From: Candidatus Micrarchaeota archaeon
GTDB taxonomy: Archaea; Micrarchaeota; Micrarchaeia; Norongarragalinales; Norongarragalinaceae
Assembly (NCBI GenBank): GCA_037444485.1
Contig: JBBIMI010000004.1
Coordinates: forward strand, 1-46,850
Direction of reading: 5' to 3'
DNA length: 46,850 nucleotides
The position numbers and the translations under genes are program-made. Under the pieces are notes generated by a model. The model saw only the letters and a list, made by a program, of their open reading frames with translations, did not search any database and was not told where the DNA came from. This document shows positions 20,655 through 28,936 of the stretch, one piece after another (position 1 is the first letter of the stretch; each line of letters starts with the position of its first letter).

Positions 20655-21310
20655 GTGTTTAAGCCCGTTATAGGAGTGAGCAAACTGCGAGAGATAGCAC
20701 GCAAGCTACGCATTCAAGTCCTAGTTATGACTACTCGCGCTGGTTCTGGTAACCCCGGCGGTTCGCTTAGCAGCGCAGACATAATCACTGCATTATATTT
20801 CAATAAGATGAGGCACGACCCTGAAAATCTTGATTGGGAGCAGCGGGACCGTTTCGTTTTAAGTGAGGGCCACAGTTGTCCAATCGTATACGCTGCTCTC
20901 GCTGAATGCGGTTATTTTCCTAAAGAAGAGTTGAAAACGCTGCGTAAGCTTGGAAGCATTCTGCAAGGACATCCGGACGCGAAGAAAACTCCTGGAATAG
21001 AGTTTTCAACTGGCTCGCTTGGCCAGGGTTTGTCGCACGCGAACGGTATTGCGATGGCACTCCAACACGAGAACGTTAACTCGCGCGTTTACGTTTTGAT
21101 GGGCGACGGCGAGCTCCAGGAAGGACAAGTTTGGGAAGCATCGTTGCGGAAACGCTTGCTGAACGCGGAATTAGTATTTCCTTTAAGCGCGTAGGAACTA
21201 TTGGCTTTGGCGAGTCGAGTAATCCAGACGCGTTGCTTAAATCGCGTGGAATGGATGCTGAAAGCATCGCGCGACACGTTGAAAAGTTACTCAAGAAAAA
21301 TCAAGAATAA
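20655..21310 (+). pseudogene. tkt: Transketolase pseudogene: N-terminal subunit fused out of frame to the tail of the C-terminal subunit by an internal deletion
   Basis: GSGNPGGSLSSAD, RDRFVLSEGH, LQGHP, STGSLGQG, MGDGELQEGQVWEA, then a break. Another frame from 21138 reads SIVAETLAERG...KRVG...FGESSNPDALLKSRGMDAESI to TAA 21310, resembling a transketolase C-subunit terminus. Confidence 0.88.
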
Positions 21311-21376
21311 GAAAAGAGAAAGCAGGAAAAAAGTAAGACGAGCGAGAGTGGACAAGTGAGAGTAAACAAGTGAGAG

Positions 21377-21527
21377 TGGGCCTGCGGAGAATCCCGCCGC
21401 TTTTCTTTTTTCCAAGGTTTTTTCTTTTCCTAAAAGAAAAAAGCTTTTTTCCAAGAAAGAAAAGCTTTATCGAACTCCGGTTCTCCAGTGTGTGAGACTG
21501 GCGTCTTAACCACTCGACTACAGGCCC
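21377..21527 (-). tRNA. tRNA-Val(CAC) with a 78-nt intron at position 59/60
   Basis: Acceptor GGGCCTG/CAGGCCC, D arm GTCG/AGAC, anticodon arm CCAGT-CT CAC AC-ACTGG, T stem CGGAG/CTCCG. The T loop TTCGAT|T is split by 21468-21391. No CCA. Confidence 0.9.
21391..21468 (-). other. tRNA-Val intron (78 nt), long hairpin with bulge-helix-bulge-like ends
   Basis: Central helix TTCG/CGGG, 3-nt bulges AT^A and AT^T, intron stem GCTTTTCTTT/AAAGAAAAGC. Confidence 0.8.
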
Positions 21528-21642
21528 AGCTTAAACTATTCTAAAGCGCTCTTAAGCGTTGTTAAGCGCTTTAAAGTATTGAGCGAAAACTGGATTAAAA
21601 AACGCTGCGCTGAATTCCACTGGATTCAAGATTCCACTCGAT

Positions 21643-22062
21643 TCAAGCGCCGACGGCAGGTTCAGCATTTGACTCGTCTTGCGACTCGTTTTGCTCCTCG
21701 TTTTGCTGCGCGCTTTGGGTTTCGGTTTCGCTTTGAAGCGTTTCGTTTTGGGTGGCTTGGCGGGGCGCGTGTTCGCGGAGTCGTTCGTGGTAGCGGGAGT
21801 AGCGTTCGCGTTCTTGCGCGCGTTCTCGGTTGCGTTCGAGTTGGCGTTTCTTTTTCTCGTAGACGCGTAAGTGTTTTCCGCAGCCTGGGCAGTAGGCGAC
21901 TTCGCGTGTTATCACGCGCGTGTAAGGTTGTCCTTCTGCTACGTCTTTGCGTTCTAACGGGTTCGTGAAAACTGGTTTTTCTATGAATACTGCTTTGTCT
22001 CTGCGGACCATGCGCCCGCATTTTTCGCAAGTTACTAGGCGTTCTCTGCCTCTGTGCCCCAT
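21643..22062 (-). CDS. rps26e: 30S ribosomal protein eS26 with an acidic C-terminal extension
   Basis: VTCEKCGRMVRRDKAV and YCPGCGKH zinc-ribbon pattern of S26e; basic core, then an E/Q-rich tail. Confidence 0.8.
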   Translation of the reverse strand: MGHRGRERLVTCEKCGRMVRRDKAVFIEKPVFTNPLERKDVAEGQPYTRVITREVAYCPGCGKHLRVYEKKKRQLERNRERAQERERYSRYHERLREHAPRQATQNETLQSETETQSAQQNEEQNESQDESNAEPAVGA

Positions 22063-22212
22063 TGAAACCAACTCTTTTTTGAAGCGTGAATGTTTTTAGC
22101 ATTGTCGGTGATGAAAAGATTTTTATTTAATTAGCTTGTTGATTGGGATTGTTGTTGATTGGTTGTTGATTGGGATTGTTGAGAATAGTTTTAGTTGGTT
22201 GGGGGTTTTAAA

Positions 22213-23589
22213 ATGATTGGTTTGATGACGGGTTTACGGTTTAAAGCGTTTTGCTTCGCGTTGCTGGCGGTGGCCTTACTTGTTTTTTCTTTAAGCGCGT
22301 CTGCGCAGGAACCGCAGGCGCAGGGTGGTGGTGTTGACGGTGACGGTGTTGAAGCACAGTTGTTTCAAGCGACTGGCTGCGCGTTGCCTTTACAATGCGT
22401 TCCTTTGAACGTGGTTGGCCAGCAGATCAGCTATTGTAAGCGCGTTGATTTATCTTGCGGCGATCCAGCGCTCGCGTGCGTGCAATGCGTTCAAGAATTG
22501 AATGTTACGCGCGTTGCGTACTTGCTGAAGCAAGTCGCGAAAGGCAATGCGACCGCGCTTGCAGAATTGCGGGTTTTAATTAATCAAGTCAGGGAAGCGA
22601 AAGCAGCCGGCAGGCAAGCGTTCATCGAGAATTTCTTCATTAAAACGAGACTCGCTGCAAGTGCGAACGCGACTGCTTTCGACTCGCTTGGCCGCGCGTT
22701 ACGCGTCCGACGCGCGGCGCTGTTCTCCCTGCTGCAGGAAAACGGTTTGCAGTTAGTCGAGATTCCAGTCGAATTGCCGAACGGCGCCGTGCTCAAGAGT
22801 TTCCGCGATCCTGAAACCGGGGTTTCGCTTGAGAACGGCAAGCTAGTGATTCCAATGCGTGAAGGCAACAACATCGTGGGCGGCATCATCGCGGACGTCG
22901 ATGCCGGAAAAGCGAACGCAAGCGCGAACGGTAACGTAATCATGCGAATCAAGCAAGCGCGGCTCGCGTTCCGCGAGAAAATGGCTTTGTTTGACGACAA
23001 GTTTTTCGCCGCCAGCGTGAACGCGCGGTTGAAGAGAATAACTGAAAACGCGAGTGCCAGCATCGACTTGAAAAAAGTTCTCGGAGAAAAAACGCGCGCC
23101 AAGTTTGAAGCGCTCGCAAAACAAAAACGCTTTAGTTTACGCGAGTTAAGCGCAGTCATCGAAATTAAGAAAGCAGGTTTGCGCGACAAAAACGAAATCG
23201 ATGACGCCGAAATAGTGTTCCGCGTGCCAATGAGTTGGGTTCGCGCGCAGGGGGGCGTAAACAACGTGCGCGTCTTGCGCGAGGCTGACGATGGGAGCGT
23301 GGAAGAACTAGAAACAAGACTCATTAAAACAGGCTTGTTCGGAAACGCTGTTTTCAGCGCCGTAAGCCCGAATGGCTTAAGCGTTTTCGCTGTTTATTCA
23401 GTGCAATTCCTAAAGCCAGAATCAGGAAGTGTTACTCAAGCCCGGCCTTCAATTGAAGCGAGCGCTAGTCCGCCTGCAGAAGAAAAACGCGTTGTAGCAA
23501 CGCGGTTTGAAGAAATTTGGTTTATTGCAGTCGTACTCGTAATCGTTGGAATAGCCGCATTTTTTTACTCGAGGAAAAAGAAAACTTGA
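22213..23589 (+). CDS. Secreted/anchored protein with a PGF-pre-PGF-like domain
   Basis: Signal peptide, Cys-rich N-terminus, FRVPMSWV...LREADDG...ELET...AVSPNGLSVFAV (PGF-pre-PGF-like), TM helix and RKKKT tail; GGGGG RBS before ATG 22213. Confidence 0.78.
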   Translation: MIGLMTGLRFKAFCFALLAVALLVFSLSASAQEPQAQGGGVDGDGVEAQLFQATGCALPLQCVPLNVVGQQISYCKRVDLSCGDPALACVQCVQELNVTRVAYLLKQVAKGNATALAELRVLINQVREAKAAGRQAFIENFFIKTRLAASANATAFDSLGRALRVRRAALFSLLQENGLQLVEIPVELPNGAVLKSFRDPETGVSLENGKLVIPMREGNNIVGGIIADVDAGKANASANGNVIMRIKQARLAFREKMALFDDKFFAASVNARLKRITENASASIDLKKVLGEKTRAKFEALAKQKRFSLRELSAVIEIKKAGLRDKNEIDDAEIVFRVPMSWVRAQGGVNNVRVLREADDGSVEELETRLIKTGLFGNAVFSAVSPNGLSVFAVYSVQFLKPESGSVTQARPSIEASASPPAEEKRVVATRFEEIWFIAVVLVIVGIAAFFYSRKKKT

Positions 23590-23628
23590 TTACGTGGTTT
23601 GATTACGCGCACGGTTTGATTTAATTAA

Positions 23629-24198
23629 TTACACGGTGACGAACGCAAACAGTTGGTATGCGGAGAACACTAGCGCTATGGCCGCGAGCGCCGTGAGGAC
23701 TCCCTTCCATCCAGAGTTCTTCGAAGCGGTTTCAGCTGCGAAGCCGAACAAAGCGAATTGGTAGTAGGGAATCAAGCTTAACGCGAGCGGCACTGCAGCC
23801 GCGTTTCCAAGCACTGATTCAAAGAGAAAAACGATTATAGCCTCGATTGGCAGGAAGAACACTTGCACACTCAAGAACGTGGCGGCAGTCAAAAACGCGG
23901 TTGCAGCAAAACCTTGTCTTGAACCTAACGCGCGCGCAACCGCGAACACGATTGCGAGGAGGACTGCGAATACCGCGAGCACGACGAAGTAGTTGTAAAC
24001 GCTTCCGCCGAGCGTCGCGGCAGCCAAGTCTGTGGGAAAAGCAGCGATTAGCGCGGAAACGAGTAGGACGACGAGCAGGTTTTTCAGCGAAGCGCGTTTT
24101 TCAAGCGCGAGAATGCTCTCTTCGTTGAAGAAAACCAGCCCAACGTAGTCAAGCAACTTGTCCAATTTTTTCGACTTTGATTCTTTTTTCTTACCCAC
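23629..24198 (-). CDS. Multi-pass membrane protein (YIP1-like topology)
   Basis: About five hydrophobic helices after a basic N-terminus; GGGTG RBS before GTG 24198. Confidence 0.65.
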   Translation of the reverse strand: MGKKKESKSKKLDKLLDYVGLVFFNEESILALEKRASLKNLLVVLLVSALIAAFPTDLAAATLGGSVYNYFVVLAVFAVLLAIVFAVARALGSRQGFAATAFLTAATFLSVQVFFLPIEAIIVFLFESVLGNAAAVPLALSLIPYYQFALFGFAAETASKNSGWKGVLTALAAIALVFSAYQLFAFVTV

Positions 24199-24234
24199 GA
24201 AAAACACCCGCTCATTACTTGACTTTATACACTT

Positions 24235-25182
24235 TCAGTACTTGACTTTATACACTTTCACCGGCTTTGCTTTTCCCTTCAACAAAACTTCCTCGACTTC
24301 CTTGTGGAATTCAACCTGGTTTTTCACAAGCGAGTAGGTCGCTTCACTAACCACGATTTCTCCTGATTTTGCGACGCCATTCAATCGCGACGCGGTGTTA
24401 GGCACGTCGCCGATTACCGTGTAATCGACGAACTGGTGCGACCCGACGTTTCCCACGACAGCTTCTCCTGAATTGATTCCAATACCCACATTTACTTGTT
24501 CTTTGCCCTGCCGCACGAGTTCCGCGTTGACTTCAGCGAGCTTTTTCTGGATTTCGATGCTCGCCTTGACGGCGCGCAGCGCGTGGTCGGGCTGCGGAAC
24601 CGGCGCGTTGAAGAAAGCCATCACCGCGTCTCCAATGTACTTGTCTACAGTCGCGTCGTACTTCAACAAGACGTTCGTCACGACGTCGAAATACTTTTCA
24701 TTCAACAGCTTGACCAGTTCTTCTGGAGCGACGCGCTCGCTCAAGCTCGTAAAGCCACGGATGTCAGTAAAGAGAACGGTCACCATGTGCTTTTCGCCGC
24801 CGAGCTTCACGTCAGGATGCTCCATCAGCTCGTCAATAATGCGTTCCGAAACGTACTTCTGGAAAAAGCTTTTCACCTTCATCTTCTCGGCGCGCTCGCG
24901 CCTGCGGCTGGACTCGAGATAGCTGTAAGCGAAAAAGAAAATCAAGGGAATGAACGTGGCGACGAATGAAGTTTGTTCAAAGAAAGACTGCAAACGCGCG
25001 CCGTACAACGCGAGCCACTCGCTGCTCGCCACCAGCACGAGCGCGGCTACTAAAATCGGATAGCGGTACTTGCCGGAAGCCCAAAACGCCTTCATGAAGC
25101 GGACTATGCCGTAAAGAGAAAATAGAATCACGAACGCGTGAAAGTAAAAAATGAATTCAATCACTTTAACCACTACCGCCAC
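24235..25182 (-). CDS. Class III adenylate/guanylate cyclase with 3 N-terminal TM helices (adenylyl-type residues)
   Basis: VLFTDIRGFT, DKYIGDAVMAFF, GIGINSGEAVVGNVG, YTVIGDVPNTASRL, LLKGK. Confidence 0.92.
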   Translation of the reverse strand: MAVVVKVIEFIFYFHAFVILFSLYGIVRFMKAFWASGKYRYPILVAALVLVASSEWLALYGARLQSFFEQTSFVATFIPLIFFFAYSYLESSRRRERAEKMKVKSFFQKYVSERIIDELMEHPDVKLGGEKHMVTVLFTDIRGFTSLSERVAPEELVKLLNEKYFDVVTNVLLKYDATVDKYIGDAVMAFFNAPVPQPDHALRAVKASIEIQKKLAEVNAELVRQGKEQVNVGIGINSGEAVVGNVGSHQFVDYTVIGDVPNTASRLNGVAKSGEIVVSEATYSLVKNQVEFHKEVEEVLLKGKAKPVKVYKVKY

Positions 25183-25198
25183 TCATTGTTTCGCGTAT

Positions 25199-25585
25199 TT
25201 AATTCGCGTATTTAATTAAATCCTGCGGCTTGAAAACTTTTGAAACCAGTGCTCTTGCTGAAAATTCTTTGATTAGCTCGAAAGAAGCTAATTCCTTGCA
25301 TTTTGAAAAGGCGTAAGCGACTTTCATCGCTACCGTCTTTTCGACGTAGCCTTCCTTCGCGAATACGTACATCAAATCGCATTCGTCAATCAAGTCGCAT
25401 TCGTCAATCAAGTCGAAAGTGCGGAACAAAGCTTTTCTCTCGCCTTCAAAAACACGGTCGCCCAAACCTTTCTTTGGAGTCGAAACTTTAACGCCTTCAC
25501 CAGCTTCAGCAGCGCAGGCTTCGGCTAGTTTTTCTACGTCGTCGAAAAACCTTCTGCTGCCCGCGATGTAAACGCGTTTCAACAA
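25199..25585 (-). CDS. Nucleoside 2-deoxyribosyltransferase-like (flavodoxin-fold) protein, possibly degenerate
   Basis: VYIAGS N-terminus and IDECDLMYVFAKEGYVEKTVAMKVAYA resemble the DxxYV...GYxGxSxxxExxYA pattern; in-frame 18-nt duplication. Confidence 0.55.
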   Translation of the reverse strand: MLKRVYIAGSRRFFDDVEKLAEACAAEAGEGVKVSTPKKGLGDRVFEGERKALFRTFDLIDECDLIDECDLMYVFAKEGYVEKTVAMKVAYAFSKCKELASFELIKEFSARALVSKVFKPQDLIKYAN

Positions 25586-25587
25586 GT

Positions 25588-26331
25588 TCAGTTCCTTCCG
25601 CCATACTTTCTCAAGTGCTTTATTTTCCCCAGCCGCAAGCCACTCAAGGAAAACGCGGTTGCGTTGTTCAAGTCGAACAAGTTGTTTGCGAAAAACGGTC
25701 CTAAAAGCCTTTCTCCAGAATTCGCTGACGCGCTACCCACAATCGCATTGAATGCGGGAAACCACACCACGCGCTGCTTGCGCGTTCCAAACTTTTTGCT
25801 CGCCTTCATCTCGCCGATTATCCACGCGCGCTGGCTCCACGCGCCAGTCTTTTCGCGGAATCTGATTGCGGGGTGCTGGTGTCCGAAGCACAGCGTGTCT
25901 GCAGCCAATACTTCGCTGGACGGCCAAGCGTGACCGTGACACAAACCGATTTTTTTCTTTCCGTCACGCAAAACGATTCCCTGCGGTTGTTCGACTGAAA
26001 GCTTCGCAAAGCCGTAAGACTCGAGTTGCGAGTCGTGGTTGCCTTTAATCACGAGAACGCGCGGGCAGTCGAGCGCGTCGAGGAACTCGCCGACCAAACG
26101 CTTTTCCCGTTCTTCAAAACCATAAACGTCGTGCTTGAAATCGCCGAGCACTACGACTTCATTCGCGTCGAATTCCGCGAGCAACGCGTTGAGCTTGCGC
26201 GCCAAACGCTTGTGCTGCAGTGGAAGCATTATCTTGTTTTCGCGCGCTTCGAACTCGATTCCCAAATGCAGGTCGGAAATCACGATGCGATTGCCTATGA
26301 CAGCAGCCGGTTCACCGAAAACGAATTTCAC
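25588..26331 (-). CDS. Calcineurin-like metallophosphoesterase (archaeal COG1407/ICC-like type)
   Basis: ISDLHLG, LGDFKH, KGNHD, HGH, FGHQHP, PAFN. Start uncertain (26331 or 26355). Confidence 0.88.
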   Translation of the reverse strand: MKFVFGEPAAVIGNRIVISDLHLGIEFEARENKIMLPLQHKRLARKLNALLAEFDANEVVVLGDFKHDVYGFEEREKRLVGEFLDALDCPRVLVIKGNHDSQLESYGFAKLSVEQPQGIVLRDGKKKIGLCHGHAWPSSEVLAADTLCFGHQHPAIRFREKTGAWSQRAWIIGEMKASKKFGTRKQRVVWFPAFNAIVGSASANSGERLLGPFFANNLFDLNNATAFSLSGLRLGKIKHLRKYGGRN

Positions 26332-26630
26332 GAGTAACAAAAAGAAGCTCCTCAAATAAAAAACAAAATGTTTAATAAGCGCGCTCGCGAAAAACAGTGC
26401 GAGGTGTCAACATTCATGGGCGAATTTGAAACAGCTGGGAAAAAAAAGAAAACGAAGTCAAAGCGCGGCTGTTCCTGTTATTGAATTGATTCACGTTCTC
26501 GCGTTCGCATGGGCGTCGAACGACGTCAAACAATTAACTTGTTTTCCGTTTCGTTTACCGAGAGGTTTTTATCGTTCAACCAACTAAAACATGAGAAAAA
26601 ACGTGAGGGAAAACTTGGGAGGAATTCGAA

Positions 26631-28553
26631 ATGAAGATTCTGCAACTTCATTGCGATTACATTCAATTCAAGCCGAAAACCAAGGCGCTGAAAACCGCGC
26701 CCGAGCTCACTGAAGAAGAAAAGAAAGGCTTCAGGCTTGAAAACGTGGTGGTGCTCTTCACTTCATTTGAAGCTAGCGACGACGCGAGCGTGCTCGAGGA
26801 AGCAAAGCGGCAAGTAGAGAAAGACTACAAGGACGTGAAAGCCGAAAACATTTTAGTTTACCCGTACGCGCACTTGAGCGCAGACCTCGCTCCGCCGCAA
26901 AAAGCAGTCGAACTCTTGAATGCGTTCCTCCACAAAGTTCGAGAAATAAACCCGAACGCGAAGAAAGCGCCGTTCGGCTACTACAAGGAATTCGAGTTAA
27001 AATGCAAGGGCCACCCGCTCGCTGAATTAAGCAAAACCATTAACGCGGCGAAAATCGAGCGCGAGGCTGACGCGCTCGGCGCGAAGGAAGTCGTGGTCGA
27101 AGCAGCAGTCAAACAAAAGCCAGCTGTTGAAACAGCGTTAAGCGAATCACTCAAGAAAGAAGCAGTCATGAAAAGCAGGTTTTACATTCTCTCGCTGGAC
27201 GGCGAACTCACAGACGCGGACAACTTCGACTACAAGAATCACGAGTTGCTCAAGAAATTCGCTGATTACGAAATTCGTAAAGTCCGCGTTTACGCGCAAG
27301 AACCGCCACACATTAAACTCATGAAAGAACACAAGATTGCTGGTTACGAGCCAGCGAGCGACGCAGGCAACTTCCGCTGGCTGCCGAAAGGCAGGTTAAT
27401 GAAAAAACTCTTGGAACGCTACATAAGCGAAACATGCATTGATTACGGCGCTACTGAAGTTGAAACCCCACTCATGTACGACTACGAACACCCCGCGCTC
27501 AAAAAATATCTTAACCGTTTTCCAGCAAGACAATACGTCGTCAAAAGCGACGAGAAAGAATACTTTCTCCGCTTTGCAGCGTGCTTCGGTCAATTCCTCA
27601 TCGCACACGATTCGACGATTTCCTACAAAAACCTTCCACTCAAAATATACGAGTTGACGCGTTACTCGTTCAGACGCGAGCAAAGCGGCGAACTCGCCGG
27701 CTTAAAACGCGTCCGCGCGCTGACGATGCCGGACATGCACACTATTTGCGTTGACTTGAAGCAAGCGCGCGAAGAATTCGAACGCCAGTTTAACTTGTGC
27801 TACGATTGGCTAAGCGATTTCAACATTCCGTTCGAAGCAGGCTTTCGAATTCAAACCGATTTTTACAACGAAAACAAAGACTGGTACTCGCACTTGATAA
27901 AGAAATTCGGCAAGCCCGTGCTGGTAGAAATGTTTGACGAACGCTACGCTTACTTCATCACGAAATTCGAGTTCAACTTCGTTGACAACCTCGACAAGGC
28001 AAGCGCGTTAAGCACAGTACAAATCGACGTGGAAAACGCGGAAACTTACGACCTCGCTTTTACAGACGAGAAGGGCGCGCGCAAGCGCCCGCCGATTCTG
28101 CACGCGAGCATAAGCGGCAGCCTCGAACGCGTGATTTACGCGATTCTCGAAAACGAAGCGAGAAAAATCAAGGAAGGTAAAACACCTGAATTTCCCTTAT
28201 GGCTCTCACCAACTCAAGTACGCCTAGTGCCAGTAAGCGACAAGCAAAACGCTTACTGCGAGAAACTCCTTGCAGAATTCGAAAAACGCAGCGTGCGCGT
28301 GGATTTCGACGACCGCAATGAAACCCTGCAAAGCAAAATACGCGACGCGGAACGCGAGTGGATTCCATTCATTGCAGTAGTAGGCGAAAAGGAAGAGAAA
28401 AACAGCGTGCTTTCAGTGCGCGTGCGTTCAAAAGGAACACGAGAAACAATCGAACCCAGCAAGCTTGCTGACGCGGTTGAAAAACAAACTGCTGGAAAAC
28501 CATTCGAAAAACTACCCTTGTCAAACCACTTAAGCAAGAGACCAGCATTCTAA
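26631..28553 (+). CDS. thrS: Threonine--tRNA ligase, archaeal type with N-terminal editing domain
   Basis: MKILQLHCDY, VYPYAHLS, APFGYYKEFELKCKGHPLAELS, FAACFGQF, MPDMHT, LHASISGSLER, WLSPTQVR. Confidence 0.96.
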   Translation: MKILQLHCDYIQFKPKTKALKTAPELTEEEKKGFRLENVVVLFTSFEASDDASVLEEAKRQVEKDYKDVKAENILVYPYAHLSADLAPPQKAVELLNAFLHKVREINPNAKKAPFGYYKEFELKCKGHPLAELSKTINAAKIEREADALGAKEVVVEAAVKQKPAVETALSESLKKEAVMKSRFYILSLDGELTDADNFDYKNHELLKKFADYEIRKVRVYAQEPPHIKLMKEHKIAGYEPASDAGNFRWLPKGRLMKKLLERYISETCIDYGATEVETPLMYDYEHPALKKYLNRFPARQYVVKSDEKEYFLRFAACFGQFLIAHDSTISYKNLPLKIYELTRYSFRREQSGELAGLKRVRALTMPDMHTICVDLKQAREEFERQFNLCYDWLSDFNIPFEAGFRIQTDFYNENKDWYSHLIKKFGKPVLVEMFDERYAYFITKFEFNFVDNLDKASALSTVQIDVENAETYDLAFTDEKGARKRPPILHASISGSLERVIYAILENEARKIKEGKTPEFPLWLSPTQVRLVPVSDKQNAYCEKLLAEFEKRSVRVDFDDRNETLQSKIRDAEREWIPFIAVVGEKEEKNSVLSVRVRSKGTRETIEPSKLADAVEKQTAGKPFEKLPLSNHLSKRPAF

Positions 28554-28734
28554 AATTCTAAAACATGAAACTCTAAAAACAGTTCCACCTATTCAACACC
28601 AACTTACTCGAGTTATTAATTATTCGAATCATTAAACAGTTTATACCGCAGTTTATTAATTTGTTTACCGCAGTTTATTAATTTGTTCGACGACTAACAA
28701 AATTGTTGGCGCGCTAAAACAAGGGCACGCGCCC

Positions 28735-28936
28735 GGGCCTGTAGCTCAGCCTGGATAGAGCGGCAAGCTTTTCTTTCTTGGAAAAAAGCTTTTTTCTTTT
28801 GGGAAAAGAAAAAACCTTGAAAAAAAGAAAACATTGAAAAAAACATTGAAAGAAAGAAACAAAAAAAATTGAAGAGAAAGAAGGGCACGCAAGCCTTCTA
28901 AGCTGACGGTCGAGGGTTCGAATCCCTTCAGGCCCG
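28735..28936 (+). tRNA. tRNA-Arg(TCT) with a 127-nt intron at position 29/30
   Basis: Acceptor GGGCCTG/CAGGCCC, D arm GCTC/GAGC, anticodon arm GCA|GC-CT TCT AA-GCTGA after removing 28766-28892, T arm GAGGG-TTCGAAT-CCCTT. No CCA. Confidence 0.88.
28766..28892 (+). other. tRNA-Arg intron (127 nt), homologous to the tRNA-Val intron
   Basis: 11-bp terminal stem GCTTTTCTTTC/GAAAGAAGGGC (two G-U), central helix GCGG/ACGC, bulges CA^A and AA^G. The first 66 nt match the Val intron at 64/66. Confidence 0.8.

What the first reader, a model, noticed from the sequence alone, without database searches (positions are those of the whole stretch)
21377..28936. The same hairpin element forms the intron of two different tRNAs at two different positions: candidate mobile tRNA intron
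Seen: tRNA-Val(CAC) intron (78 nt, 59/60, minus strand) and tRNA-Arg(TCT) intron (127 nt, 29/30, plus strand) share AGCTTTTCTTTCTTGGAAAAAAGCTTTTTTCTTTT(A/G)GGAAAAGAAAAAACCTTG(G/A)AAAAAAGAAAA, 64/66 identical (21466-21401 vs 28766-28831). The core has an 11-bp inner stem, an internal CTTG(G/A)AAAAAAG direct repeat and self-pairing ends. The few nucleotides after it differ and in each case complement that tRNA's own 5' exon, rebuilding a bulge-helix-bulge. Established: BHB introns are cut by archaeal EndA, and intron transposition between tRNAs has been proposed for Thermoproteales. Inference: a recently spreading non-coding element that is harmless because splicing removes it, either an intron moving by reverse splicing/recombination or a MITE domesticated as an intron. 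No mobilising enzyme is in the window.
Basis: partly seen in the sequence, partly recalled or inferred. Interest (0 to 1): 0.9.

Follow-up and report, generated by a model that had tools for sequence, protein, structure and literature searches.

The report
Repeated hairpin inside archaeal tRNA introns
Two tRNA genes of a tiny DPANN archaeon are each split by an intron carrying the same 66-base hairpin, which belongs to a many-copy hairpin family that lives in tRNA introns and has recently spread between introns that already existed.

Summary
tRNA-Val(CAC) (21377-21527, minus) has a 78-nt intron at 59/60. tRNA-Arg(UCU) (28735-28936, plus) has a 127-nt intron at 29/30. The introns share a 66-nt core, 64/66 identical, and removing them gives clean cloverleaves. 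The organism is a Micrarchaeota (DPANN) archaeon, a lineage already known for non-canonical tRNA introns.

The core is not limited to two copies. In the source metagenome its inner hairpin reaches about 55-60 times genome depth and the full core about 6-10 times. At least four more tRNA genes carry it: Val-UAC, Gln-UUG, Thr-CGU and one unidentified.

Both intron sites are older than the shared core. A 77% relative has a 29-nt textbook bulge-helix-bulge (BHB) intron at the same Arg 29/30 site, with the orthologous 3' tail. A 90% relative has the Val 59/60 intron with a different hairpin variant. So what spreads or is homogenised is an internal pyrimidine-arm/purine-arm hairpin module, not the whole intron.

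Related hairpins sit in tRNA introns across Micrarchaeota. Similar introns in different tRNAs are already known from Thermoproteales, so this is a new variant of a known kind. Splicing and the spreading mechanism remain untested.

The parts
21377..21527 (-). tRNA-Val(CAC) gene, interrupted
   Evidence: The spliced sequence is called tRNA-Val(cac), 73 nt, by ARAGORN. Rfam tRNA matches the 5' part weakly. The 5' exon is 59/59 identical in relative L114.
21469..21527 (-). Val 5' exon (tRNA positions 1-59)
21391..21468 (-). Val intron, 78 nt, in the T-loop at 59/60
21377..21390 (-). Val 3' exon (positions 60-73)
21401..21466 (-). 66-nt shared core, copy 1 (outer arms GCUUUUCUUU / AAAGAAAAGC enclosing the inner hairpin)
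21417..21444 (-). Inner hairpin GCUUUUUUCUUUU-AGG-AAAAGAAAAAAC, the most highly repeated unit
   Evidence: Folding. Summed depth is about 1300-1380x against 21-24x in the flanks.
21391..21400 (-). Val-specific 3' tail GCGGCGGGAU. CGGG can pair with U54-G57 to form the central BHB helix, and AU|U forms the 3' bulge.
   Evidence: Read from the sequence; folding.
28735..28936 (+). tRNA-Arg(UCU) gene, interrupted
   Evidence: The spliced sequence is called tRNA-Arg(tct), 75 nt. Its exons are 73/75 identical to the syntenic gene in L113.
28735..28765 (+). Arg 5' exon (positions 1-29)
28766..28892 (+). Arg intron, 127 nt, in the anticodon stem at 29/30
28893..28936 (+). Arg 3' exon (positions 30-73)
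28766..28831 (+). 66-nt shared core, copy 2
28788..28815 (+). Inner hairpin GCUUUUUUCUUUU-GGG-AAAAGAAAAAAC. It contains a T6 run at 28790-28795.
   Evidence: Depth is 1300-1450x.
28777..28788 (+). Direct repeat CTTGGAAAAAAG, left of the inner hairpin
28816..28827 (+). Direct repeat CTTGAAAAAAAG, right of the inner hairpin
28832..28892 (+). Arg-specific purine-rich tail. It contains degenerate (C)ATTGAAA repeats. GAGAAAGAAGGGC pairs with the intron's 5' arm. The final ACGCAA is orthologous to CCGCAU in L113.

Best explanation
These are two working tRNA genes (Val-CAC and Arg-UCU) of a Micrarchaeota (DPANN) archaeon. Each is interrupted by a protein-spliced, bulge-helix-bulge (BHB) type intron at a known non-canonical hot spot: 59/60 in the T-loop and 29/30 in the anticodon stem.

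Shown: both introns carry the same 66-nt nested hairpin. This is a genome-specific variant of a hairpin module with a pyrimidine-rich 5' arm and a purine-rich 3' arm, which sits at the 5' end of tRNA introns throughout Micrarchaeota.

Inferred: in the pre-tRNA the hairpin forms or extends the distal helix (h') of the splice motif. The short site-specific 3' tail pairs with the 5' exon to make the central helix. A broad-specificity splicing endonuclease cuts in the two bulges, an RtcB-type ligase joins the exons, and the hairpin leaves with the intron, so it costs the cell little.

Shown: the two intron sites predate the shared core, because orthologous genes in 77% and 90% relatives have introns at the same sites with different interiors.

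Inferred: the 97% identity reflects recent spread or homogenisation of the hairpin module among pre-existing introns. The route is either insertion of a small palindromic DNA unit or gene conversion between related hairpins. The evidence does not point to recent arrival of whole introns.
For: - Spliced sequences are canonical tRNAs.
- Exons are under purifying selection. Val 5' exon is 59/59 identical in L114, whose neighbouring protein is 90% identical. Arg exons are 73/75 identical in L113, whose ThrRS is 77% identical. The introns differ.
- No intronless copy of either gene appears among the contigs of the source run.
- L113 has a 29-nt intron at the same 29/30 site with a strict BHB: GCGG:CCGC, bulges CA|A and AU|G, and a 9-bp h'.
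- L114 has the same 59/60 site with another hairpin variant that differs by three compensatory pair changes.
- L002 (ThrRS 69% identical) has the syntenic Arg gene with no 29/30 intron but a strict-BHB T-loop intron.
- Depth in the source run is about 24x for the genome, about 150-270x for the outer arm and 1300-1450x for the inner hairpin.
- Further contexts at genome depth are tRNA-Gln(UUG) T-loop, tRNA-Val(UAC) T-loop, tRNA-Thr(CGU) anticodon loop, and an unidentified tRNA at about 29/30, all in the same orientation.
- The only copies in 46.8 kb of window are in the only two tRNA genes.
- Related hairpins occur in tRNA introns of L002, L005, L012, L020, L035, L043, L074, L114 and an Aenigmatarchaeote, L076.
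- Ca. Micrarchaeum has 56% disrupted tRNA genes, including 59/60 introns, and an endonuclease that cuts relaxed BHBs (PMC3239211).
Against: - There are no RNA data, so splicing is inferred and not seen.
- The endonuclease and ligase genes are not in the window.
- The window's own BHBs are degenerate. In Arg the central helix is 3 bp plus a G-A mismatch with no clear outer helix. In Val the central helix needs two G-U pairs and is separated from h' by a 2x2 mismatch.
- Both introns contain a T6 run in the sense strand, which could act as an archaeal terminator.
- Most of the roughly 55-60 hairpin copies have unresolved contexts, and several recovered flanks are A-rich and not recognisable as tRNA exons.
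- The L114 contig ends inside the intron, so its tail cannot be compared.
- The 90% relative L112 has a run of N exactly where tRNA-Arg should be.
- The short L113 intron could in principle be a deletion derivative of a long one.
Confidence: 0.65

Rival explanations
1. Whole-intron transposition. A complete BHB intron, splice sites included, recently moved by reverse splicing or recombination into new positions of Val and Arg. Its 3' end was then adapted to each site.
For: The same core occurs at three different tRNA positions in the same genome. The 69% relative L002 lacks the 29/30 intron, so introns are gained and lost in this clade. tRNA-Gly(UCC) is intronless in L003 but carries T-loop introns in the 88-92% relatives L004 and L026. 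Thermoproteales offer a precedent (PMC4090602).
Against: The 29/30 site, with its orthologous 3' tail, is already occupied by a 29-nt intron in L113. The 59/60 site is occupied in L114 by a different variant. ThrRS and neighbour-protein divergence of 10-23% is far older than the 3% divergence of the cores. Depth shows that the unit repeated about 55 times is the 28-35-nt inner hairpin, not the intron.
Confidence: 0.12
2. A DNA-level palindromic mini-element (MITE, REP or PATE-like), mobilised in trans by a transposase elsewhere in the genome. It inserts into the loops of existing intron hairpins and survives only there because splicing removes it.
For: A 12-nt direct repeat flanks the inner hairpin. 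Deleting the hairpin plus one repeat leaves a perfect 10-bp hairpin, GCTTTTCTTT-CTTGGAAA-AAAGAAAAGC (sequence). Copy number is high and the copies are nearly identical. A second variant is 51/56 identical between L114 and L020, although their lineages share only about 56% ThrRS identity. L020's 88% relative L012 has diverged at the orthologous site. That same variant is also present at about 10-17 copy equivalents in the source run. In L004, an intron-like sequence lies in reverse orientation outside any intron, between a tRNA and a 20-nt duplicate of its 3' end. Seven of 13 hairpins share a conserved C-C mismatch, reminiscent of the imperfect palindromes recognised by HUH transposases (the comparison rests on my own knowledge).
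Against: The window has no transposase. The window has no copy outside tRNA genes. All resolved copies have the same orientation relative to the tRNA. The window and L114 introns are collinear, so the nested structure is not a fresh insertion relative to L114. The direct repeat could come from slippage or duplication. There are no hits in viral contigs.
Confidence: 0.25
3. Concerted evolution only. Ancient, independently inherited intron hairpins of the same family are kept alike within a genome by ectopic gene conversion, without any insertion events.
For: Copies within one genome are far more alike than orthologous copies in relatives (97% within the genome versus three compensatory changes against L114). 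All introns of the clade already carry a hairpin of the same pyrimidine-arm/purine-arm type to serve as a conversion partner.
Against: Conversion among about 55 dispersed tracts of 30-66 nt would need to be very frequent. It does not explain the near-identity of the second variant between distant lineages.
Confidence: 0.2
4. The two genes are pseudogenes killed by a repeat insertion, or the loci are assembly chimeras across a repeat.
For: Assembly contigs break at the repeat. The BHBs are imperfect. The adjacent transketolase gene is a remnant.
Against: Exons are almost perfectly conserved against relatives while the surrounding genes have diverged. The same interrupted architecture is found in independent assemblies L113 and L114. 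No intronless copies are found in the run. The alternative join across the inverted repeat would not give a tRNA.
Confidence: 0.04

Closest known systems
'Translocatable' tRNA introns of Thermoproteales (Fujishima et al. 2010, as summarised in PMC4090602, PMC4033280 and PMC4390854)
   Same: [quoted passage not shown] The introns are BHB-dependent and the mechanism of spread is unknown.
   Different: The host is DPANN, not Crenarchaeota. Here the shared unit is an internal hairpin module, and the two intron sites demonstrably predate it. There are about 55-60 copy equivalents. Relatives of the module sit in class II tRNAs (Ser, Leu), for which PMC4390854 states that no translocatable intron is known. 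I could not read the 2010 paper itself.
Non-canonical tRNA introns of Ca. Micrarchaeum acidiphilum ARMAN-2 and its epsilon2 splicing endonuclease (PMC3239211, PMC5829648)
   Same: Same phylum. [quoted passage not shown]
   Different: The ARMAN-2 introns described are short (13-25 nt), and no shared repeated core is reported in the passages I read. The endonuclease type of the present organism is unknown.
MITEs, REP elements and IS200/IS605-derived palindromic elements (own knowledge)
   Same: Short, non-coding, palindromic, many nearly identical copies, flanking direct repeat, imperfect palindrome with a conserved mismatch.
   Different: All resolved copies lie inside tRNA genes in one orientation. 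No transposase was seen. No intergenic copy was found in 46.8 kb.
tRNA gene disruption by an integrating element in Caldiarchaeum subterraneum (Sugahara et al. 2012, as described in PMC4033280)
   Same: A DNA insertion next to or inside a tRNA gene is proposed as the source of new introns. The L004 arrangement (tRNA, 223-nt insert, 20-nt duplicate of the tRNA 3' end) resembles this.
   Different: That insertion was 1.8 kb and encoded a recombinase. Here the units are 30-220 nt and non-coding.

Membership tests
Archaeal BHB (protein-spliced) tRNA intron | Removal of the insert restores a canonical cloverleaf tRNA | tested here: met
   ARAGORN calls Val(cac) and Arg(tct) on the spliced sequences.
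Archaeal BHB (protein-spliced) tRNA intron | A bulge-helix-bulge, or a relaxed hBH/HBh' motif, spans both splice sites | tested here: inconclusive
   Val has the T-stem, a 3-nt bulge AU|U, a 4-bp helix UUCG:CGGG with two G-U pairs, a bulge AU|A, and then a 10-bp h' after a 2x2 mismatch. Arg has only GCG:CGC plus a G-A mismatch, and a 13-bp h'. Orthologues and relatives L113 and L002 show strict BHBs at the same kinds of site.
Archaeal BHB (protein-spliced) tRNA intron | Cleavage by EndA, ligation by RtcB, and spliced tRNA present in the cell | not testable with these tools
   No RNA run holds the locus. The enzyme genes are not in the window.
Archaeal BHB (protein-spliced) tRNA intron | Host gene is functional (exons under purifying selection, no intact second copy) | tested here: met
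   Exon identity to relatives is 59/59 and 73/75. No intron-skipping joint was found in the source run.
Translocatable tRNA intron family (Thermoproteales type) | Near-identical intron sequence in non-homologous tRNAs at different positions of one genome | tested here: met
   64/66 identity between Val 59/60 and Arg 29/30. Further copies occur in the Gln, Val(UAC), Thr and one more tRNA gene.
Translocatable tRNA intron family (Thermoproteales type) | The shared sequence marks a newly gained intron site | tested here: not met
   Both sites are occupied in relatives by introns without the 66-nt core (L113; L114).
MITE / REP-like DNA repeat | Terminal inverted repeats or a palindrome, and many near-identical copies | tested here: met
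MITE / REP-like DNA repeat | Target-site duplication | tested here: inconclusive
   A 12-nt direct repeat flanks the inner hairpin, but the nested layout is shared with L114, so it is not a fresh insertion scar.
MITE / REP-like DNA repeat | Copies in intergenic DNA and in both orientations, and a cognate transposase | tested here: not met
   The window has no copy outside the two tRNAs and no transposase. All six resolved contexts share one orientation. The whole genome was not available.
Intron-encoded small RNA (for example C/D box sRNA in tRNA-Trp introns) | Match to a known small RNA family, or box motifs | tested here: not met
   Rfam returns only chance-level miRNA-like matches to the hairpin (E 5.6-7.4).

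The most novel reading that the evidence does not exclude
The hairpin is a selfish palindromic mini-element specialised for life inside tRNA introns. It copies itself into the hairpins of existing introns and moves between DPANN lineages. One variant is 91% identical between genomes whose ThrRS proteins are 56% identical, while orthologous introns of close relatives differ. It may be recognised through its conserved outer helix, C-C mismatch and pyrimidine/purine stem. Alternatively, the same conserved architecture marks a functional RNA module that helps splicing or acts after excision as an abundant circular RNA.
Probability: 0.2. Interest if true: 0.75.

Novelty: new variant of a known kind. 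Interest (0 to 1): 0.5.

Why it matters
How archaeal tRNA introns arise and spread has been open since similar introns were found in different Thermoproteales tRNAs. Reviews still call the mechanism unknown (PMC4090602).

This locus offers a young, high-copy case in a small genome. Relatives at 90%, 77% and 69% protein identity show the same sites with a different hairpin, with a short textbook intron, or with no intron. That separates two questions that are usually confounded: where an intron site comes from, and where its sequence comes from.

It also points to concrete tests, namely population variants, a closed genome, and endonuclease assays on strict versus degenerate BHBs.

There is a practical consequence too. 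Standard tRNA finders miss both genes, so tRNA complements of such MAGs are underestimated.

Tried and rejected
- **Collection scans for the inner hairpin.** Exact-pattern scans found nothing in genome contigs, metagenome contigs or viral contigs.
- **Looser metagenome pattern.** A scan with AAGCTTTTCTTTCTTKGAAAA gave 30 loci, all unrelated coding sequences.
- **Rfam.** No family passed at gathering score. At relaxed E-values only the 5' part of Val, a fragment of the Arg T-arm and chance miRNA-like matches to the hairpin appeared. A small-RNA reading was dropped.
- **RNA evidence.** No RNA run was available.
- **The 90% relative L112.** It has a run of N exactly at the tRNA-Arg position.
- **L115.** It lacks the Val region.
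- **Covariance model.** A MAFFT alignment of 12 hairpins was not structurally consistent, so I built no model. I counted pairs on a five-sequence subset instead.
- **Fujishima 2010.** The paper is not held.
- **Split-tRNA reading.** I considered separate transcription of the two halves and rejected it, because the Val 3' exon is only 14 nt.
- **Target-site duplication at the intron borders.** I rejected it. GCAAGC occurs at both Arg junctions, but excision at equivalent points would leave one extra base in the anticodon stem.


Full report
**Observation.** ARAGORN and Rfam at gathering score report no tRNA in the 46.85-kb window. A relaxed Rfam scan finds only the first two thirds of a tRNA at 21461-21527 (minus strand) and a T-arm/acceptor fragment at 28911-28928.

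By hand, and then with ARAGORN on spliced sequences, the window holds two interrupted genes:
- tRNA-Val(CAC), 21377-21527, minus strand: 5' exon 21469-21527, intron 21391-21468 (78 nt, position 59/60), 3' exon 21377-21390.
- tRNA-Arg(UCU), 28735-28936, plus strand: 5' exon 28735-28765, intron 28766-28892 (127 nt, position 29/30), 3' exon 28893-28936.

The two introns share a 66-nt core (21466-21401 versus 28766-28831) that is 64/66 identical. A 24-mer from the core occurs only there, with none expected by chance.

The core is a nested hairpin. Outer arms GCUUUUCUUU / AAAGAAAAGC enclose an inner 11-bp hairpin, GCUUUUUUCUUUU-RGG-AAAAGAAAAAAC. The inner hairpin is flanked by the direct repeat CUUG(G/A)AAAAAAG.

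**Organism and support for the loci.** The adjacent threonyl-tRNA synthetase carries the archaea-specific editing domain. Its nearest relatives are Micrarchaeota MAGs. The best species representative is 69% identical (Ca. Norongarragalinales, L002). Closer proteins at 90% (a JGI metagenome) and 77% (NCBI GCA_013425445.1) exist.

The exact protein is found only on a 7,344-bp Logan contig of one subsurface-metagenome run. That contig runs exactly from one copy of the core to the other. Other contigs of the run cross the remaining exon-intron junctions.

**The element is a family, not a pair.** In the source run the genome sits at about 21-26x. The summed word depth over the outer 5' arm is about 150-270x. 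Over the inner hairpin it is 1,300-1,450x. That corresponds to roughly 6-10 near-full cores and 55-60 inner hairpins per genome equivalent. About half carry the A and half the G loop variant.

Loose ends of contigs at genome depth show other hosts, all with the hairpin in the same orientation relative to the tRNA:
- tRNA-Gln(UUG), in the T-loop. Its tail GCGAAAA gives a perfect UUCG:CGAA helix.
- tRNA-Val(UAC), in the T-loop.
- tRNA-Thr(CGU), just after the anticodon. Only the inner hairpin is present there.
- An unidentified tRNA (GCGGAGGUCGCC...GGCGGCA|AGC) at about 29/30, with the same GCGGCA exon motif as Arg.

Several other flanks are A-rich and cannot be assigned. In the window itself the hairpin occurs nowhere except in the only two tRNA genes. 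No endonuclease, ligase, transposase, integrase or reverse transcriptase is encoded among about 40 ORFs scanned.

**Relatives show that the intron sites are older than the core.**
- In L113 (ThrRS 77% identical) the syntenic tRNA-Arg(UCU) has exons 73/75 identical to the window. Its intron sits at the same 29/30 site but is only 29 nt: GAGCGGCA|AACUCUUUUUCUCAAAAAGGAGUCCGCAU|GCCUUCU.
- That intron folds into a textbook motif. The central helix is G24-G27:CCGC, the 3-nt bulges are CA|A and AU|G, and h' is 9 bp.
- The window's tail ...ACGCAA|GCC is the same tail with one change, which breaks one pair.
- In L114 (neighbouring protein 90% identical) the orthologous tRNA-Val(CAC) has a 59/59 identical 5' exon and an intron at the same 59/60 site that begins with the same AAAGCUUUUCUUUCUU. 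Its hairpin is a different variant, GCUUUUCUUUCUU-GGA-AAGAAAGAAAAC, which differs from the window's by three compensatory pair changes.
- In L002 (69%) the syntenic tRNA-Arg(UCU) has no 29/30 intron. It has a 73-nt strict-BHB intron in the T-loop instead.

Introns therefore turn over in this clade. However, the two sites in the window existed before the 97%-identical core spread, and the site-specific tails are inherited, not rebuilt.

**A clade-wide hairpin module.** A simple structure-aware tRNA finder run on 1.2 Mb of relatives shows many Micrarchaeota tRNAs with long introns, mostly in the T-loop. Their 5' ends repeatedly carry a hairpin with a pyrimidine 5' arm and a purine 3' arm of the type CUUUUCUUU...AAAGAAAAG:

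| Locus | tRNA | Intron position |
|---|---|---|
| L002 | Arg-UCU | T-loop |
| L005 | Ile-UAU | T-loop |
| L012, L020, L035 | Ser-CGA | T-loop |
| L043 | Ser | 37/38 |
| L074 | Leu-UAA | 37/38 |
| L114 | Val-CAC | 59/60 (T-loop) |
| L076 (an Aenigmatarchaeote) | Ile-GAU | near the variable/T-arm region |

- All four exact-arm hits in 1.24 Mb lie in tRNA introns.
- Seven of 13 hairpins share the layout of an outer 2-4 bp helix, a C-C mismatch and a 10-13-bp stem.
- On a five-sequence alignment 97% of cells pair. Five pairs show changes on both sides, and slid registers score worse. The sample is small, and a DNA palindrome would give the same signal.
- The L114 variant is 51/56 identical to the T-loop intron of tRNA-Ser(CGA) in L020, whose ThrRS is only 56% identical to the window's. 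L020's 88% relative L012 has a diverged hairpin at the orthologous site.
- The same variant is present in the source run at about 10-17 copy equivalents, on contigs at genome depth.

So several subfamilies coexist in one genome, and at least one is shared across distant lineages.

**Mechanism.** The best-supported reading is that these are ordinary protein-spliced introns whose distal helix has been occupied by a proliferating or homogenised hairpin.

What is shown: the gene structures, exon conservation, intron positions, copy number, tRNA association, orientation bias, and the greater age of the sites.

What is inferred: splicing itself, the enzymes, and the way the hairpin spreads. Ca. Micrarchaeum has an endonuclease that cuts relaxed BHBs, and 56% of its tRNA genes are disrupted (PMC3239211). 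L3-loop enzymes elsewhere in DPANN correlate with tRNA gene disruption (PMC5829648).

For the mode of spread I cannot choose between two routes:
- Insertion of a small palindromic DNA unit. In favour are the 12-nt flanking repeat, a reconstructed empty site that is itself a perfect hairpin, the high copy number, and the cross-lineage identity.
- Gene conversion among related hairpins. In favour is that copies within one genome are much more alike than orthologous copies in relatives.

An RNA-mediated route is not excluded, but no reverse transcriptase was seen.

Caveats are that the window's own BHBs are degenerate compared with those of relatives, and that a T6 run lies in both introns.

[quoted passage not shown] Non-canonical introns are established for Micrarchaeota (PMC3239211).

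What differs here:
- The host phylum is DPANN.
- The shared unit is an internal module, not the whole intron.
- The copy number is high.
- The stem/mismatch architecture is conserved.
- The family occurs in class II tRNAs in relatives, for which PMC4390854 says no translocatable intron is known.
- There is direct comparative evidence that site origin and sequence origin are decoupled.

I rate it a new variant of a known kind with moderate interest (0.5). The more novel reading, an intron-resident selfish hairpin moving within and between DPANN genomes or a functional intron module, is not excluded. I give that reading a probability of about 0.2.

Noticed in passing
window 20655-21340: Transketolase remnant next to the 3' end of tRNA-Val. 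The ORF 20655-21194 matches only positions 5-165 of the 334-position Transketolase_N model. A different frame then encodes about 60 residues that weakly match the last 50 positions of Transketolase_C (E 0.009). It looks like an internally deleted gene.
   Followed up: partly
window 21344-21379: A 14-nt tandem repeat (GAGAGTGGACAAGT, 2.6 copies) abuts the 3' end of tRNA-Val. The Logan contig of the source run carries one extra unit at 21351, so copy number varies.
   Followed up: partly
window 21540-21574 and 28644-28687: Short tandem repeats lie in both tRNA upstream regions. Upstream of Val there are 3.6 copies of TCTTAAGCGC. Upstream of Arg there is an exact 22-nt duplication containing TTTATTAA, possibly a duplicated TATA-like promoter element. 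Many other intergenic regions of the window also carry short tandem repeats.
   Followed up: no
window 28721-28730 and 28881-28890: The 10-mer AAGGGCACGC occurs both in the 5' leader just upstream of tRNA-Arg and at the 3' end of its intron just upstream of the 3' exon. Each exon is thus preceded by the same motif. This is unexplained.
   Followed up: no
L004 1581-1895: An intact tRNA-Val(UAC) is followed by a 223-nt insert and then an exact duplicate of the tRNA's last 20 nt (TTCGATTCTCCGCGGGCCCA). The insert contains a family-type hairpin. In reverse orientation it also contains a 49-nt stretch 39/49 identical to the intron of the same genome's tRNA-Arg(CCU). This may be a snapshot of DNA-level insertion at a T-loop.
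   Followed up: partly
L003 5673-5742, L004 8269-8398, L026 608-706: The same tRNA-Gly(UCC) is intronless in L003 but has T-loop introns of 60 nt in L004 and 29 nt in L026. The ThrRS proteins of these genomes are 88-92% identical, so intron gain or loss is rapid.
   Followed up: partly
L112 5535-6335: In the 90% relative, the position where tRNA-Arg should lie is a run of about 540 N. It is preceded by three roughly 60-nt tandem repeats and CTTGGGAAAAAAAC-like motifs. The assembly probably failed on the same kind of repeat.
   Followed up: no
L113 1-575: A partial Phage_integrase gene lies at the contig end of the 77% relative. It replaces the gene order seen to the left of the cyclase gene in the window.
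   Followed up: no
hairpins in window, L114, L020, L012, L002, L076: A single C-C mismatch lies between a short outer helix and the long pyrimidine/purine stem. It is conserved, and the outer helix changes from AAG:CUU to GGG:CCC in L012. Its meaning is unknown.
   Followed up: partly
L020 8041-8415: tRNA-Ser(CGA) with two long introns, 112 nt after position 37 and 179 nt in the T-loop. The gene spans 375 nt for an 85-nt tRNA.
   Followed up: yes
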